A DNA stretch of 63,552 nucleotides, the filler included, from Reclinomonas americana ATCC 50394 (lineage: Eukaryota), in the NCBI GenBank assembly GCA_048213135.1. It is 17 parts of 17 records of this genome, joined end to end, with 100 filler letters (N's around TTAATTAATTAA, not from the genome) between each part and the next. Parts side by side here need not be neighbours in the genome. Positions count along the whole stretch, not along the records: positions 1 to 9,234 come from AFZH01021213.1; positions 9,335 to 12,000 come from AFZH01021216.1; positions 12,101 to 14,519 come from AFZH01021217.1; positions 14,620 to 19,165 come from AFZH01021218.1; positions 19,266 to 23,688 come from AFZH01021219.1; positions 23,789 to 25,279 come from AFZH01021221.1; positions 25,380 to 26,592 come from AFZH01021222.1; positions 26,693 to 38,391 come from AFZH01021223.1; 9 more parts are not named here. One strand, given 5' to 3'. Below, in pieces: positions 1,555-50,573 of the stretch (position 1 is its first letter; the number at the start of each line of letters is the position of its first letter). The translations under genes were made by a program, and so were the position numbers. Below the pieces are notes generated by a model that saw only the letters and a list, made by a program, of their open reading frames with translations, did no database searches and was not told the origin of the DNA.

Positions 1555-2640
1555 TCACAGGTGCAACTGAGGATCAACAAGGCACCGATGTACCACTCCC
1601 TCCGCCTCCTCCACCAGAAAGCATCTCAGCACCAGCTCCGGTAAGCAACGTGAATCCACCACGTGCACTTCCCCATCTTGCATCTCCTGCACCGCCTGCA
1701 TCGCCGAACGCGCCCAATCGAGCTCGCTCCGAGCTAAGCCGCAAGGAGTGCACCACACTAGCACAGTATTGTCATAACCCCCACTGACAATGTGCTGCCC
1801 GTCCGGAGTGACGGCAACACATGACACCGTATCGGTGTGCCCCTCCAACCGATGCAATTCCTCACCGCTCGACAGCGACCACACGCGCACTGTCGTATCA
1901 TCACTGCAACTCACAATGTACATGCCGTTGAGAGTAACAGTGACAACGCGGACCGCACTGGAGTGCCCCTCCAGTCGTCGCGTCTCCACGCCACGCGCCA
2001 GCGACCACACACGCACTGTCCTATCATAACTCCCGCTCACAACGTGCTGGCCGTTGGGAGTGATGGCGAGAGACCACACCGAATCGGCGTGACCCTCCAG
2101 TCGTTGCACTTCTTCGCCACTCTCCATCGACCACACTCGTATTGTTGCATCACCGCTGCCGCTGACAACGTGCCGACCGTCGGGCGTGATGGCGACAGCT
2201 GACACCCACACAATGTGTCCTCTCAATAGCCACACGACCTCGCCGGTCGCCAGCGACCACACTCGCACTGTCATGTCGTCACTCCCGCTCACAAGGCGTT
2301 CACCGTTCCGAGTGATGACCACCGAGTGCACCCAGTTCGCGTGTCCCCTCACCTGTCGCACTTCTTCTCCAGTCGCCAACAACCATACACGCACAGTCGT
2401 GTCCGCGCTCCCGCTCACCACGAATCGACCATCGGGGGCGACGCTGACAGATGTAACCTCACGAGTGTGTCCAGTCAACCGTCGCACTTCCGCGCCAGTC
2501 GCCAGCGACCACACGCGTATCGCTCCATCGCCACATCCACCGACAACGAAGCGACCGTCGGGAGTGATGGCGAGGGACCACACAGTGGTGGTGACTCCCT
2601 CCAGCAGGCATTTTCGGAGGAAGAGGGGAGGGGTGGACAT
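1555..2640 (-). CDS. WD40 array copy 1: intronless 7-repeat WD40 protein plus conserved ~60-aa C-terminal tail
   Basis: Starts [11 protein letters not shown] (ATG 2640). Seven ~42-aa GH...TPDG...SG..D.TVRVW repeats. Tail [11 protein letters not shown]...[17 protein letters not shown]...DPQLHL. Confidence 0.9.
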   Translation of the reverse strand: [361 protein letters not shown]

Positions 2641-3055
2641 GGGAGGGTGGAGAGAGGGTGGGAGGGGGAGATGAGAGGCGTAAGGGGAAGAGGGTGTGGA
2701 GGTGGTGGGATGGGATTGCGTGCACGCGAGTGTGCGAAATAAAAGAAGTGAATTGACGCAGGACGCGGCATACACGAAGAGCTGCACTCCTGAAGGCCTA
2801 CCGAGACGGGGGGCTCATCGCACGATGGAAAAAGAGGAAGAATTATCGTGCACGCATTCGCAGTTGAGGAAAGTGAAGCTCTCAAGAATCAGGTCTCCAC
2901 AACAGTGCAGTGCAACACCACTTTCGATCAATCGCCCTTCCAGCACCTCCTGCACCGCCTGCATCGACAGTAAGCCGCGTTCATCGACGACTTTATTCAA
3001 CAACACTTGAGTACCCAGTTTTGCAATCCCTTCCAGAACACTTCCCCATGAATCG

Positions 3056-47100: not shown

Positions 47101-50100
47101 AGGGACATTTCGTGCCCGTGGACCCGAAGCTGTCGCGCGCCGAGCGGCTCCATCAGCCGGAGCGGACGCTCGTGCGGTGCATGCTGCGTCTGTTCTCCAA
47201 GGACGACGTTGATCTCTTTCTGCAAAAGTTGAGGGCAATTTCTGGTGAATCTCCCTTTGCCTTAGCTCACTCTGTGCGAGTAGGTTTGTGGAGTCGCGGG
47301 CGGATCGTTCTCGCTCCTGGGAGCAGCACAAGCAGCAGATCCAGCGCACACCCGGTCTGGATGGACTGGCCTCGTCGGTGAGTTGCTGGGAAAGGGAGAG
47401 AGATGAATGGGCCGTTGAAGTGGAGAAGTGGGTGTCGGAGGAGACTTGCGAGAAAGGGAGAGTCATCAGATGCAGACGAAGGAATAGTGCCGCGAGCAGG
47501 CGCATGCGTCGGGATTGTATGGAAGAAGATGACTACATTCGTAAGGGCAAGAGTTTTGTTGTGGAAAAGGCTCCCTGTATTAGACGCAAGTATTGTCGAA
47601 CCCATGGGGAAAAAGAGCCCGTCGCATGCTGATGGGAGAGGAGAGGAGAGGAGAGGAGAGGAGAGGAGAGGAGAGGAGAGGAGAGGAGAGGAGAGGAGAG
47701 GAGAGGAGAGGAGAGGAGAGGAGAGGAGAGGAGAGGNNNNNNNNNNNNNNNNNNNNNNNNNNNNNNNNNNNNNNNNNNNNTTAATTAATTAANNNNNNNN
47801 NNNNNNNNNNNNNNNNNNNNNNNNNNNNNNNNNNNNTCCCTACTCTCCCTCTCTCACTCTCCCTCCCTCTCTCCCTCCCTCCCACTCTCTCTCTCTCCCA
47901 TTACAGCGAACACAACAGGCTGTTGCGGAGCAAGACGTGTGGAACAAATGGTTCGATCGTGATGATCCACTGCAAAACTCCCTTGTGCGCGCTGTTGCGT
48001 CGTCGTCGTTTGCCCTCTCCCGTCGTCATATGTGTCCTTGCGTTCTCAATGGACAGGACGACACAGGCGTTGCTCAAATGGAGTCGACTCGGAGCGTCAC
48101 AACAGCGTGTGGAGTTCATGCACAAATCGGTGCTGGAGTACTTTGCCGCTCAATCGTGGCTGGCTGATGTGCGGCTGTTGGCCAATGAGGAGGTGGAGAT
48201 GGAGGTAGCATCGTCGTGCTTCTCTGATTGTCTCACTCGCATGGTGCTGAAATATCTTCGTGCAGGATCGACTCGACCGACTGTGCTCCAGCTTTAGTGG
48301 CCAGCGGGCACTGCTCACATCCGATGAAGTGAGTGCATCGATACCATCAACATGAGTGCTCCTGTGTTCACCTCCTTCGATGATTGCAGGGCCTCAACTC
48401 AATCCTGTCGTTCATCGCCGAGCAAGTGCAGTCGGATCCGTCCCTTCATGGTGTGATGTGGAAGGCCATGGCACTCTCGTGCACAGAGGAAAGAGTCGCG
48501 GTCGTGTCTTCGAGTGCCGCCAGTGCGCTGTGCCTCGCGGAGGTGTCGTTTAGTGGGCGAGATCTGTCGGGCGTGCGAATCCCAGGCGCGGATCTGAGGG
48601 ATGCAGTGATGCATAGGACGGTGTGGAAGGGGGCGGATTTGCGAGGGGTGAATGTGTGCCTGGCCTACGGGAGAGAGGCGGATTTCAGAGGAGCGGATGT
48701 GACGGGCGTGAAGTGGCCGAGCAAGCCAATGGAGGGACACACGAGGACGGTGCATGCAGTGGCTGTCACTCCCGACGGGCAGTATGCGGTAAGTAGGAGC
48801 TCTGACTGTACATTGCGTGTGTGGTCACTGGCGACTGGAACGGAGATGCAACGATTGTTGGGTCACTATCACTATGTACACGTCGTTGCTGTCACTCCCG
48901 ACGGCAAGCACATTGTTAGTGGGAGTGAAGACAACACTGCGCGAGTGTGGTCGCTGGCGACTGGAGAAGAGGTGCGACTGTTTGCCGGGCACGCTCAATA
49001 TGTATACTGTGTTGCCGTCTTTCCTGACGGTCAGCTCGTTGCAAGTGGGGGTGCCGACAATACAGTACGAGTGTGGTCACTGGCTGATGGAGAAGAGGTG
49101 CGACAGTTCGTGGGGGACGACGGTTGGGCGATGTGTGTCGCTGTCACTCCCGACGGGCAACACATCGTCAGCGGGAGCTTGGAGGGCACAATACGAGTGT
49201 GGTCTCTGGCGAGTGGGGATGAAGTGCATCGCCTGATGGGGCACACTGGTGGTGTGCGGTCAGTCGCCGTAACCCCCGATGGTCAGTGCATTGTGAGTGG
49301 CGGCAATGACGGCGGGACCGTGCGGGTATGGTCGATGGTCAGTGGAGAGGAGGTGCGAACGCTCGAGGGACACGCTGACGCGGTGTCGTCCGTCGCCGTT
49401 ACTCCGGATGGTCAGTACGTTGTGAGTGGAAGTGAAGACAGCACAATACGTATGTGGTCACTGGGAAGCGGTGAAGAGGTGCGCCGGTTGGAGGGACATA
49501 CGGATGCGGTGTCATCTGTTATTTGCACTCTCGACGGCCAGCGAATAGTGAGCGGCAGTAGAGACGAGAGTGTCCGAGTGTGGTCCATGGCAGGTGGAGA
49601 AGAGGTGCGACGATTGGAGGGGCACACCGACGTCGTGCAGTCTGTTGCAGTCAGTAGCGATGGCCGCTACATTGTGAGTGGAAGCATGGACCACTCTACC
49701 CGACTGTGGTCAGTGGCGAGTGGGGAAGAGGTGCGACGGTTGGAGGGCCACGAAGGCGAGGTGCGGTCGGTTGCCATCACTCCCGATGGCCTGCACATTG
49801 TGAGCGGGAGCGGAGCAGAAGGCGAAGACGGCATTGTGCGACTGTGGTCGGTGGCGAGTGGAGAAGAGGTTCTGCAGTTGGAGGGACATGAGGACTTGGT
49901 CAGCTCACTCGCCGTCACCCCCGATGGCCAGTACATTGTCAGTGGGAGTGCAGATGGCACTGTGCGAGTGTGGTCGCTGTCGAGTGGAGAGGAGGTGCGA
50001 ATGCTGAAGGGACACACTTACTTTGTGACTTCCGTCGTGATCACGGCTGACGGTGAGCACATTGTGAGCGGCGCTAGAGATGGAACCGTGCGTGTGTGGT

Positions 50101-50573
50101 CTGTGGCGGGAGGCGAAGAAGTGCAATGCATCAACTACGATGACAGCGTGTGGTCTGTCGCCGTCGCTCCCGACGGTCAGCAAATCGTCAGTGGAAGTGA
50201 GGACAGCATGATCTGTGTGTGGTCGCTGGCGAGTGGCGAGCGGGAACAAGAGCTGGAGGGTCACGCCGAACCGGTGATGGCAATTGCCGTGACACCCGAC
50301 GGGCAGTATATAGTGAGCGGCAGTGCGGATATGACGGTGAGCGTGTGGTCGCTGGCGAGTGGCGAGGAGGTGCAGACATTGGAGGGACACACGGGTCTTG
50401 TGATGTCAGTCGTCGTTATGCCGGATGGGCGGCACATTGTTAGTGCGGGTGAGGATAACACGATTCGGTTGTGGTCGATGGCGCAGGAGGAGGAGGGGTG
50501 GGAGGGGGTGTTGTTGCATCGTGTTTTTGGTTCTTTTTTGCCTGATTTTACTGGTGCGGTGTTTGAGGAATGA
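44155..50573 (+). CDS. NLR-like STAND protein: N-terminal region - NACHT NTPase - pentapeptide repeats - 14 WD40 repeats (5' end uncertain, possibly from ~43700)
   Basis: Walker A VLVVAGWSGGGKS (exon from 46327), Walker B VVLALDGYDE (~46875), sensor SWPNVLLVVSVRREF, WHD EFMHKSVLEYFAA (~48112), pentapeptides FSGRDLSGVRIPGADLRDAV...ADFRGADVTGV, 14 WD repeats in one final exon (~48390-50573). Some NACHT exons fall in gaps. Confidence 0.88.

What the first reader, a model, noticed from the sequence alone, without database searches (positions are those of the whole stretch)
1555..50573. One WD40 repeat family shared by the stand-alone genes and the NLR sensor domain, hypervariable at ligand-facing positions
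Seen: the array and the NACHT gene 40 kb away share the consensus [42 protein letters not shown], also at DNA level (gtgtggtcgctggcgagtggcgaggaggtgcg, gccgtcactcccgacggc; ~126-nt unit). Variation is concentrated after GH (TDM, RNW, TEP, DDS, YHY, AQY, TYF), at the residue after V (W, T, H, L, Y, F, R, Q, M) and around SGS-x-D-x. Known: Podospora HET-D/HET-E NWD receptors exchange high-identity WD repeats by concerted evolution, with positive selection at equivalent top-face positions. Inference: a shuffled recognition repertoire feeding two outputs (NLR signalling and tail-mediated adaptors), or acting as decoys or repeat donors.
Basis: partly seen in the sequence, partly recalled or inferred. 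Interest (0 to 1): 0.75.

Follow-up and report, generated by a model that had tools for sequence, protein, structure and literature searches.

The report
WD40 propeller gene family beside NLR-like gene
A protist scaffold carries five tandem genes for seven-bladed WD40 propellers with an orphan helical tail and, 40 kb away, an NLR-like gene with 14 repeats of the same kind; the repeats vary at the ligand-facing loops, as this repeat class does everywhere, and show no sign of ongoing shuffling.

Summary
I found 47 units of 42 aa (126 nt). Fourteen lie in a NACHT-like–pentapeptide–WD40 gene (about 45.4–50.6 kb, plus strand). Thirty-three lie in five tandem intronless genes (1.5–9.0 kb, minus strand). 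Each of those five encodes a seven-blade propeller plus a conserved 65-aa tail. Both loci share one consensus and column-specific codon choices. Variation peaks at unit positions 6, 7, 9, 25 and 27 (and 5), which fall in the D–A loop, the start of strand A and the B–C turn, the top face.

The Podospora-style reading is not supported:
- Units are only 62–64% identical in DNA and 53% in protein; 0 of 1081 pairs reach 85%.
- Array units cluster by blade position, never by gene.
- NLR-to-array similarity is fully explained by the shared column codon pool.
- Omega at the variable sites is about 1.0–1.25, not above 1.
- The same variable columns and nearly the same consensus occur in 704 units from 108 bacterial, fungal and metagenomic proteins.

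The most likely history is birth-and-death tandem duplication with a few short conversion tracts. The tail is an orphan under purifying selection, and its only relative is a Reclinomonas americana EST product. This is an ordinary new member of a known kind, with a mildly novel tail family.

The parts
1555..2640 (-). Gene A. One intronless ORF: MSTPP leader (velcro strand), 7 WD units (1723-2604) and a 65-aa tail (1558-1752).
   Evidence: (WD40 PF00400, 7 stretches, E 4e-73).
4222..5325 (-). Gene B, the most divergent paralogue. 7 WD units (4405-5289) and a tail with a different, longer C-terminal end.
5511..6587 (-). Gene C. 7 WD units (5673-6551) and the tail. This is the protein that was modelled.
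   Evidence: AlphaFold2 model: pLDDT 87.7, 28 strands forming 7 blades, then helices 298-321 and 330-352. Foldseek top match is PDB 5yzv.
7005..7796 (-). Gene D, a 5'-truncated copy. It has 4 full units plus a partial one (blades 3-7 by the tree) and the tail. It has no MSTPP start.
7921..9007 (-). Gene E. 7 units and the tail, read in two frames. The frames change inside unit 6, at or near a G4 run (8325-8328).
46327..46548 (+). NLR-like gene, P-loop exon (Walker A GWSGGGKS at 46342). It is flanked by an AG acceptor and a GTGAGT donor.
   Evidence: Pfam NACHT E 0.0093, profile 3-58; AAA_22 E 2e-5. A custom HMM built from NACHT-bearing hits gives E 5e-4.
46857..47244 (+). NLR-like gene, Walker B exon (ALDGYDE at 46884, then LLVVSVRR).
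   Evidence: Pfam NACHT E 0.071, profile 81-141. The nearest named Atlas clusters carry NACHT, scores 0.88-0.81, a lead only.
47842..48297 (+). NLR-like gene, further exon(s) after an assembly gap, holding FMHKSVLEYFAA at 48115. The exon borders are not resolved.
   Evidence: No Pfam hit. My reading of this motif as winged-helix-like is recalled and was not confirmed here.
48390..50573 (+). NLR-like gene, last exon. It holds the pentapeptide-repeat linker (about 48534-48710), 14 WD units (48729-50504) and a short C-terminal end.
   Evidence: WD40, 14 stretches, E 1e-150; Pentapeptide PF00805, E 4.4e-9, 36.2 bits against a cut-off of 20.2.
45425..45562 (+). Probable exon just before the P-loop exon (…DDVLDKFVSREKPTDK, then a GT donor). 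The N-terminal domain upstream of it was not identified.
   Evidence: No Pfam hit.

Best explanation
This is a lineage-specific family of consensus-type WD40 beta-propellers in a protist, probably jakobid-like. It has been deployed in two gene architectures that descend from one ancestral 126-nt unit.

**The two architectures**
1. Five tandemly duplicated, intronless genes. Each encodes a single seven-bladed propeller closed by an N-terminal velcro strand, followed by a conserved two-helix tail of about 65 aa with no known family.
2. One intron-bearing NLR-like gene: unknown N-terminus, NACHT-like STAND NTPase, pentapeptide linker, then 14 WD units (two propellers).

**Where the units differ.** Units differ mainly at the top-face loop positions that make the ligand-binding surface in WD40 proteins. 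The beta-strand scaffold and the bottom loops are conserved.

**Mode of evolution.** The evidence points to birth-and-death. Whole genes were duplicated in tandem, so blades stay orthologous by position. Divergence followed, roughly neutral at the top face and purifying on the scaffold and tail. It is mosaic along the genes and includes a few short conversion tracts among the tandem copies. Ongoing concerted evolution, or exchange of units between the array and the NLR gene, is not detectable.

**Function (inferred, not shown).** The NLR-like protein probably senses a ligand on its double propeller and switches its NTPase. The stand-alone propellers probably bind related but diversified ligands and hand them to an unknown partner through the tail.
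For: **Anatomy.**

**Fold.** The AlphaFold2 model of gene C has pLDDT 87.7. Strand A covers unit positions 8-13, B 19-24, C 28-33 and D 39-42. Positions 5-7 therefore lie in the D-A loop, position 9 in strand A, and positions 25 and 27 in the B-C turn. The best solved match is the Thermomonospora WD40 domain 5yzv (41% identity, rmsd 0.9 Å over 291 columns). WDR5, designer propellers and the highly repetitive propeller 2ymu rank lower in the same list.

**Common descent of units**
- Synonymous difference pS is 0.59-0.63 in all classes, against 0.735 if synonymous codons are redrawn from pooled usage.
- Column-specific codon choice is shared between the loci.
- NLR units fit the array profile better than the outgroup profile in 11 of 14 cases, against 1 of 704 outgroup units. 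The main shared derived state is W-S instead of W-D at position 33.

**Birth-and-death**
- Array units cluster by blade: 13 changes against 22.8 shuffled (0 of 500 as low). This holds with blades 1 and 7 removed (10 against 15.2; 0 of 500).
- Starred clades exist for blade 7 (all five genes), blade 1 (A, C), blade 4 (A, C, D), blade 6 (A, D, E) and blade 3 (C, D).
- There is no clustering by gene.
- Top-face residues are partly kept by blade: 28% identity against 13% (0 of 2000 shuffles).

**Selection**
- In 13 independent sister pairs, omega at the variable codons is 1.10 and elsewhere 0.29. The two-class model beats one class by 2dlnL 52. The test of omega_HV against 1 gives 2dlnL 0.23.
- In 8 same-blade pairs omega is 0.99-1.25, P 0.53-0.96.
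- Tail dN/dS is 0.10-0.29 in all 10 gene pairs.

**Mosaicism and short conversion**
- Per-blade pS between A and C ranges 0.17-0.76 (chi-square 42, P 2e-7).
- In a Sawyer-type test, 2 pairs reach global P<0.05 across the two runs: C-D (0.0145) among the 10 pairs of the five-gene run, and A-C (0.039) among the 6 pairs of the four-gene run. D-E gives 0.054. The tracts span roughly 20-50 alignment columns.
Against: - A star-like unit tree with a shared codon consensus could also come from slow, well-mixed short-tract conversion among all units. My tests cannot separate that from one old amplification burst.
- The N units are weakly clustered by locus (8 changes against 12.3 shuffled; 1 to 5 of 500 as low) and some pair with array units without strong support: B2+N1 89/87, C2+N13 85/5, B5+N14 84/58.
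- Several array units break blade orthology: C6 with E4 (84/93), E1 next to the blade-7 clade, and A2 and A3 without partners.
- Array units fit the N profile over the outgroup in only 19 of 33 cases, and a best match in the other locus beats all 705 outgroup units for only 26 of 47 units. The lineage-specific signal at protein level is therefore modest.
- The omega tests have low power (48-78 variable codons) and use paralogues, not alleles. The variable set was picked from the same data.
- Nothing was tested about function, expression or partners.
- The NACHT assignment rests on sub-threshold matches.
Confidence: 0.62

Rival explanations
1. HET-D/HET-E-like system. Units are actively exchanged within and between the array and the NLR gene by unequal crossing-over or conversion, and the top-face codons are under positive diversifying selection. 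Together these would give a shuffled recognition repertoire, with the stand-alone genes acting as donors or decoys.
For: - The repeat family and codon consensus are shared between the loci.
- The variable positions match the interaction-surface positions reported for Podospora (passages of PMC1805685).
- All 47 six-residue top-face signatures are distinct.
- pS is mosaic along the paralogues and there are a few short concordant tracts.
- Some N units pair with array units in the tree, though weakly.
Against: - 0 of 1081 unit pairs reach 85% protein identity, and DNA identity averages 62-64%.
- Units cluster by blade and never by gene.
- N-to-array exact-run statistics equal the column-codon null. 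Mean run is 10.81 against 11.03±0.30, and 14 pairs have runs of 20 or more against 13.5 expected.
- The NLR array shows no offset-7 periodicity and no blade correspondence with the array genes.
- Omega at the variable sites is not above 1.
- The same entropy profile is seen in 704 outgroup units (Spearman 0.81).
Confidence: 0.08
2. The tailed propellers are substrate receptors of a ubiquitin-ligase-type complex. In this view the tail is a divergent adaptor-binding box (F-box-like or SOCS/BC-box-like), they have no functional tie to the NLR-like gene, and the tandem expansion diversifies substrate choice.
For: - The architecture is a single propeller plus a short conserved C-terminal helical module under purifying selection.
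- The invariant core SRCLPE..(L/M)RCF.VEEA resembles, from my memory only, the LPxE(I/L)Lxx(I/F) start of F-boxes.
- Top-face residues are partly conserved by blade, as expected for a family that binds related ligands.
Against: - The tail has no Pfam match even at E up to 10. This includes F-box and SOCS-box models, although HMMER's filters drop most matches above E about 0.1. None of the five window tails matched anything, and the sixth row matched only through its WD part.
- The tail has no PDB sequence match better than E 1.1.
- The Atlas search gave nothing named.
- The second helix has pLDDT at or below 50.
- The motif resemblance is recalled, not tested.
- The cullin gene 4 kb away is one of several unrelated housekeeping neighbours.
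Confidence: 0.15
3. The similarity of the two loci only reflects common membership of the widespread bacterial-type STAND-associated WD40 class, perhaps through separate acquisitions. Under this view there is no lineage-specific family at all.
For: - The outgroup consensus [42 protein letters not shown] is almost the window's consensus.
- The best outgroup unit equals or beats the best unit of the other locus for 21 of 47 units.
- The WD parts are intronless.
- The closest solved structure is bacterial.
Against: - The two loci share derived states: S33, Q18, E38.
- 11 of 14 N units prefer the array profile, against 1 of 704 outgroup units.
- Column-specific codon choice is shared.
- Outgroup DNA could not be compared.
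Confidence: 0.1

Closest known systems
Podospora anserina NWD/HNWD family (HET-D, HET-E, HET-R). Passages of PMC1805685 and PMC4986451 were read.
   Same: - NACHT-type NTPase with C-terminal 42-aa WD repeats of unusually high mutual similarity.
- One repeat family spread over several loci.
- Variation concentrated at the propeller's interaction surface.
   Different: - Podospora repeats are about 85% identical and reach 100%. They group by gene or species, vary in number between strains, and have four codons under positive selection.
- Here units are 53% identical in protein and group by blade position, and omega is about 1.
- Here most units sit in stand-alone genes without any NTPase, which the passages I read do not describe for Podospora.
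Bacterial and fungal STAND- or kinase-associated 'highly repetitive' WD40 propellers. These are the hits and PDB 5yzv (Thermomonospora WD40 domain) and 2ymu.
   Same: - Nearly the same unit consensus and the same most-variable columns (6, 7, 9, 25, 27).
- 45-50% identity over the 14-unit region among the better-matching hits.
- NACHT, pentapeptide and WD40 Pfam families also co-occur in one hit (P0021); pentapeptide and WD40 co-occur in another (P0028).
   Different: - The window's units carry W-S instead of W-D, plus Q18 and E38.
- The host is a eukaryote with spliced genes.
- The stand-alone form carries an orphan tail.
Reclinomonas americana EST-derived protein (P0121, EukProt EP00694_P005839).
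   Same: It is the only true relative of the tail among 1.84 billion representatives (E 1.9e-18, 63% identity). It has a last WD unit followed by the same tail, and its unit is 71% identical to A7.
   Different: It is a 116-aa fragment and its HRC cysteine is replaced (HRS). Whether it comes from the same species as the window is unknown.
WD40 proteins with a short adaptor box (F-box/WD40, WD40/SOCS-box). Recalled from general knowledge.
   Same: One propeller plus a roughly 40-60-aa helical module that could dock to a partner.
   Different: No sequence or profile match to either box. The order is propeller then tail, unlike F-box proteins.

Membership tests
WD40 repeat beta-propeller (Pfam PF00400) | Several WD40 repeat matches above Pfam's cut-off. 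| tested here: met
   Genes A, B and C have 7 stretches each (E 4e-73 to 8e-83). D has 4. E has 5+1. The NLR ORF has 14 (E 1e-150).
WD40 repeat beta-propeller (Pfam PF00400) | Closed seven-bladed four-stranded fold. | tested here: met
   The AlphaFold2 model of gene C has pLDDT 87.7 and 28 strands. Foldseek against 5yzv gives TM 0.98 (normalised to the target) and rmsd 0.9 Å.
NACHT STAND NTPase (Pfam PF05729) | Walker A GxxGxGK[ST] and an extended Walker B of the form hhD[GAS]hDE. | tested here: met
   GWSGGGKS lies at 46342 and ALDGYDE at 46884. The D[GAS]xDE motif is found in 7 of 16 hits that carry PF05729, against 5 of 104 other hits.
NACHT STAND NTPase (Pfam PF05729) | Profile match above the gathering score. 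| tested here: inconclusive
   Two consecutive exons match colinear parts of the profile: 3-58 at 16.2 bits and 81-141 at 13.4 bits, against a cut-off of 26.7 for a whole protein. A spliced protein was not scanned. The Atlas nearest named clusters are NACHT at 0.88-0.81, a lead only. The word search with the second exon found nothing.
NACHT STAND NTPase (Pfam PF05729) | Winged-helix motif after the NTPase core. | tested here: inconclusive
   FMHKSVLEYFAA is present at 48115. My regular expression for it hit 0 of 16 NACHT-bearing hits and 2 of 104 others, so the motif's meaning rests on recall.
Highly internally conserved NLR repeats under concerted evolution (Podospora type) | Repeats at least 85% identical over at least 100 aa (criterion quoted in PMC4986451). 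| tested here: not met
   0 of 1081 unit pairs reach 85%. The mean is 53% and the maximum 79%.
Highly internally conserved NLR repeats under concerted evolution (Podospora type) | Units group by gene or genome rather than by position or orthology. | tested here: not met
   The gene label needs 22 changes against 20.6 shuffled. The blade label needs 13 against 22.8 (0 of 500 as low). This is robust to removing blades 1 and 7.
Highly internally conserved NLR repeats under concerted evolution (Podospora type) | Positive selection at interaction-surface codons. | tested here: inconclusive
   Omega is 1.10 (13 pairs) and 0.99-1.25 (8 pairs), never significantly above 1. Power is low, and the comparison uses paralogues, not alleles.
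Highly internally conserved NLR repeats under concerted evolution (Podospora type) | Repeat-number polymorphism between strains. | not testable with these tools
   No genome, second strain or sequencing run was available.
Pentapeptide repeat (Pfam PF00805) | Profile match above the cut-off. | tested here: met
   E 4.4e-9, 36.2 bits against 20.2, in residues 51-109 of the last exon's start.
F-box / SOCS-box adaptor modules | Profile match of the tail. | tested here: not met
   None of the five window tails matched any Pfam family at E up to 10. The sixth row (P0121) matched only through its WD part. There was no PDB sequence match below E 1.1.

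The most novel reading that the evidence does not exclude
The five tailed propellers could be detached sensor or decoy modules of the neighbouring NLR-like protein, a 'split NLR' in a deep-branching protist. Each would present a different top face to non-self ligands. The conserved tail would dock them onto the NLR's unidentified N-terminal or NACHT region. 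One NTPase would thereby read a small, duplicating repertoire of interchangeable propellers.
Probability: 0.06. Interest if true: 0.7.

Novelty: new member of a known kind. Interest (0 to 1): 0.3.

Why it matters
The tests do not support that. What remains is useful at a smaller scale:

- It is a worked example that "hypervariable at the top face" is a generic property of consensus-type WD40 repeats and is not by itself evidence of a diversifying immune repertoire.
- It is a NACHT-like–pentapeptide–WD40 gene in a poorly sampled protist lineage. My literature searches turned up no paper on such genes in jakobids.
- It defines a small, tandemly expanding family of single propellers with a conserved orphan tail. 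That tail's partner would show what these proteins do.

Tried and rejected
- **Whole genome.** None is held for this window, so a genome-wide census of units was impossible.
- **Earlier notes.** None by place or by sequence.
- **Sequencing runs.** None was listed for 1400-9200 and no RNA holder was listed.
- **Metagenome scan with the tail alignment.** 131 pattern matches, none confirmed by tblastn.
- **Tail searches.** No Pfam hit for the five window tails, no PDB sequence match better than E 1.1 and no named Atlas cluster (best 0.81).
- **Tail HMM on the window.** It finds only the five tails and one weak remnant. My idea that the NLR's C-terminal end (…EGVLLHRVF…) is a vestige of the tail got no support, with score -3.4 elsewhere in that ORF.
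- **Tail self-association (complex prediction, two copies).** The verdict was 'no answer'. I draw nothing from it.
- **Word search with the Walker-B exon among longer proteins.** No hit.
- **Home-made NACHT HMM from 16 hits.** It recognised only the P-loop exon.
- **Species identification with the 729-aa ORF.** It returned only 27-51% identical bacterial, fungal and metagenomic proteins. Exact look-ups of two window proteins found nothing.
- **Internal 7+7 duplication of the NLR propellers, or blade correspondence with the array.** None seen.
- One search failed by picking the wrong ORF and was fixed. One search was an empty script.

Full report
**Setting.** The window is a eukaryotic scaffold.
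- It has 56% G+C, many microsatellites, and 32 runs of 44 N arranged as 16 pairs around a TTAATTAATTAA linker.
- It has GT..AG introns and housekeeping genes of eukaryotic type.
- No whole genome is held for it.
- The only relative of the most distinctive protein module found here is an EST-derived protein that its source labels Reclinomonas americana, a jakobid. I therefore call the organism jakobid-like and go no further.

**Anatomy of the array (minus strand, 1.5-9.0 kb).** There are five paralogous genes, each a single ORF without introns.
- Their spans are A 1555-2640, B 4222-5325, C 5511-6587, D 7005-7796 and E 7921-9007.
- A, B, C and E start with MST(P/T/S)PL(F/L)L.K. All five end with a roughly 65-aa tail.
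- A, B and C have seven WD units.
- D lacks the start and the first two and a half blades.
- E has seven units but switches frame inside unit 6, at or near a G4 run at 8325-8328. I cannot tell an assembly error from a real frameshift.
- Intergenic spacers are short. For example, 185 nt separate the stop of C from the start of B.
- A methyltransferase gene (3056-4138, Methyltransf_11, E 4e-12) sits between B and A.

**Anatomy of the NLR-like gene (plus strand).**
- The P-loop exon is 46327-46548 and holds GWSGGGKS.
- The Walker B exon is 46857-47244 and holds ALDGYDE.
- Further exon(s) lie around 47842-48297, with borders not resolved.
- The last exon, 48390-50573, holds a pentapeptide-repeat linker (PF00805, E 4.4e-9) and 14 WD units.
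- Two assembly gaps fall in its introns, but the exon order is colinear, so the scaffold order is right here.
- No single exon reaches Pfam's NACHT cut-off. The two NTPase exons match colinear parts of the NACHT profile (positions 3-58 at 16.2 bits and 81-141 at 13.4 bits; cut-off 26.7).
- The nearest named ESM-Atlas clusters for the second exon carry NACHT (0.88-0.81, a lead only). I call the domain NACHT-like.
- The N-terminal domain was not identified.
- About six unrelated genes lie between the two loci: a cullin, MCM10, a Ras-like GTPase, ATG7, an XPD-type helicase and a Cys/Met PLP enzyme.

- An HMM of the unit finds 47 units, and none elsewhere in the window.
- DNA-level kinship is real and goes beyond amino-acid conservation plus codon bias. 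Mean synonymous difference is 0.59-0.63 in every class of unit pair, against 0.735 when synonymous codons are redrawn from the pooled usage. Exact-run statistics exceed that null in 0 of 200 trials.
- The two loci prefer the same codon in the same column in 27 of 37 cells (null 20.2; 7 of 2000). One example is the TCN/AGY split among the conserved serines.
- The most variable columns are 7, 25, 9, 27 and 6, then 42, 2 and 5.
- In the AlphaFold2 model of gene C (pLDDT 87.7) the strands fall at unit positions 8-13, 19-24, 28-33 and 39-42. Positions 5-7 are therefore the D-A loop, position 9 is the second residue of strand A, and positions 25 and 27 flank the conserved Asp of the B-C turn.
- D-A and B-C loops forming the top face of WD40 propellers is established knowledge of the fold. 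I could not measure it on coordinates.
- The bottom loops (TPDG, LASG) are conserved.

**The pattern is generic.**
- I cut 705 near-full units out of 108 of the 121 proteins I had fetched: the 120 best database hits of the NLR's WD region (bacteria, fungi, metagenomes) plus P0121. One of the 705 came from P0121 and was left out of the profiles, which leaves 704.
- Their consensus, [42 protein letters not shown], is almost the window's.
- Their six most variable columns are 6, 7, 9, 25, 27 and 35.
- The two entropy profiles correlate at Spearman 0.81.
- Top-face hypervariability between units is therefore what this repeat class shows everywhere. Much of it is simply that different blades of one propeller carry different surface residues.
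- What marks the window's units as one lineage is modest: W-S instead of W-D at position 33 (+5.1 bits), Q18 and E38. Eleven of 14 NLR units fit the array profile better than the outgroup profile, against 1 of 704 outgroup units. Only 19 of 33 array units prefer the NLR profile.

**The mode of evolution is not Podospora-like.**
- Unit pairs are 62-64% identical in DNA (maximum 83%) and 53% in protein (maximum 79%). None of 1081 pairs reaches the 85% used to define highly conserved NLR repeats (criterion from passages of PMC4986451).
- On a maximum-likelihood tree of the 47 units, array units never group by gene (22 changes against 20.6 shuffled). They do group by blade position (13 against 22.8; 0 of 500), and this holds without blades 1 and 7.
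- NLR units are only weakly set apart (8 against 12.3) and sit on an unresolved, star-like backbone.
- The NLR units show no 7-unit periodicity and no blade correspondence with the array.
- Once column-specific codon usage is allowed for, no NLR/array pair and no different-blade pair is more alike than chance. Only same-blade paralogue pairs are.

**Some exchange or replacement did occur within the array.**
- Per-blade synonymous difference between the same two genes ranges from 0.17 to 0.76 (A against C, chi-square P 2e-7).
- A Sawyer-type permutation test finds short concordant tracts at global P 0.0145 (C-D), 0.039 (A-C) and 0.054 (D-E). The other pairs are not significant.
- A few units break blade orthology, for example C6 with E4.

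**Selection.**
- A pairwise codon model was fitted to 13 phylogenetically independent sister pairs. It gives omega 1.10 at positions 5, 6, 7, 9, 25 and 27, and 0.29 at the other 36 positions.
- The two-class model is much better than one class (2dlnL 52). Omega at the variable sites does not differ from 1 (2dlnL 0.23).
- With the 8 youngest same-blade pairs and three alternative site sets, omega is 0.99-1.25 (P 0.53-0.96).
- Top-face residues are partly retained by blade among the paralogues (28% against 13%; 0 of 2000).
- The variable sites therefore evolve about neutrally. Positive selection is not shown and, given the low power, not excluded.

**The tail.**
- All five tails and the Reclinomonas fragment share T-P, A-R, A..AV.E.Q, SRCLPE, RCF.VEEA and V.HR.
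- dN/dS is 0.10-0.29 in all 10 gene pairs, so the tail is functional.
- An exhaustive phmmer search of 1.84 billion representatives found one true relative.
- Pfam, PDB sequences, the Atlas and a metagenome scan gave nothing.
- The model shows two helices (298-321 and 330-352) with low confidence.
- The LPE..LRCF core reminds me of the start of an F-box. That is recall, not a result.

**Verdict.** Its evolutionary and functional inference (shuffled repertoire, donors, decoys) is not supported by the tests possible within one window. The most likely picture is an ordinary birth-and-death expansion of consensus-type WD40 propellers next to, but not demonstrably coupled with, an NLR-like gene of the same repeat lineage.

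**Papers.** I saw passages only of PMC1805685 and PMC4986451. Other titles come from search listings. No supplements were opened. The supplementary trees and tables of those two papers could refine the comparison.

Noticed in passing
window 2854-2967 (-): A weak tail-like remnant (…SMQAVQEV…HCCGDLILESF…) lies between the methyltransferase gene and gene A. The tail HMM scores it at E 0.12. It may be a relic of a sixth copy.
   Followed up: partly
window 3056-4138 (-): A SAM-dependent methyltransferase gene (Methyltransf_11, E 4e-12) is embedded inside the WD40 gene array, between B and A.
   Followed up: no
window 8321-8340 (-), gene E: The reading frame changes inside unit 6, at or near a G4 run (8325-8328). 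This is either a homopolymer assembly error or a young pseudogene. The downstream blade and the tail still look constrained.
   Followed up: partly
window 7005-7886 (-), gene D: Copy D lacks the start codon region and blades 1-2, and it begins about 125 nt after gene E's stop. Its blades and tail nevertheless show low dN.
   Followed up: partly
window, array genes, blade 5 against blades 2-3: Blade 5 of A, C, D and E is the least diverged part (pS 0.17-0.32). Blades 2-3 of the same genes are near saturation (pS 0.39-0.76). This is unexplained mosaicism.
   Followed up: partly
window 9235-62280 (16 sites): Every assembly gap is N44 + TTAATTAATTAA + N44 and sits at a microsatellite. Distances across the window are therefore approximate.
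   Followed up: no
window 50948-51619 (+): An ankyrin-repeat ORF (Ank_2, E 4e-14) begins about 375 nt after the NLR-like gene's stop, across a gap. It was not tested whether it is linked to the NLR-like gene.
   Followed up: no
window 42882-43590: A 20-nt tandem repeat of about 37 copies lies upstream of the NLR-like gene. It gives long spurious low-complexity ORFs on both strands.
   Followed up: no
window 629-1186 (-); 13077-13463 (+); 17576-18902 (-); 23860-29476 (+); 33443-39436 (-); 40308-41738 (-); 63104-63550 (+): Neighbouring genes by Pfam, in order: Ifi-6-16 family, cullin (neddylation domain), MCM10, ATG7/ThiF, an XPD-type DEAD_2 helicase, a Cys/Met PLP enzyme, and RNA 3'-phosphate cyclase.
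   Followed up: no
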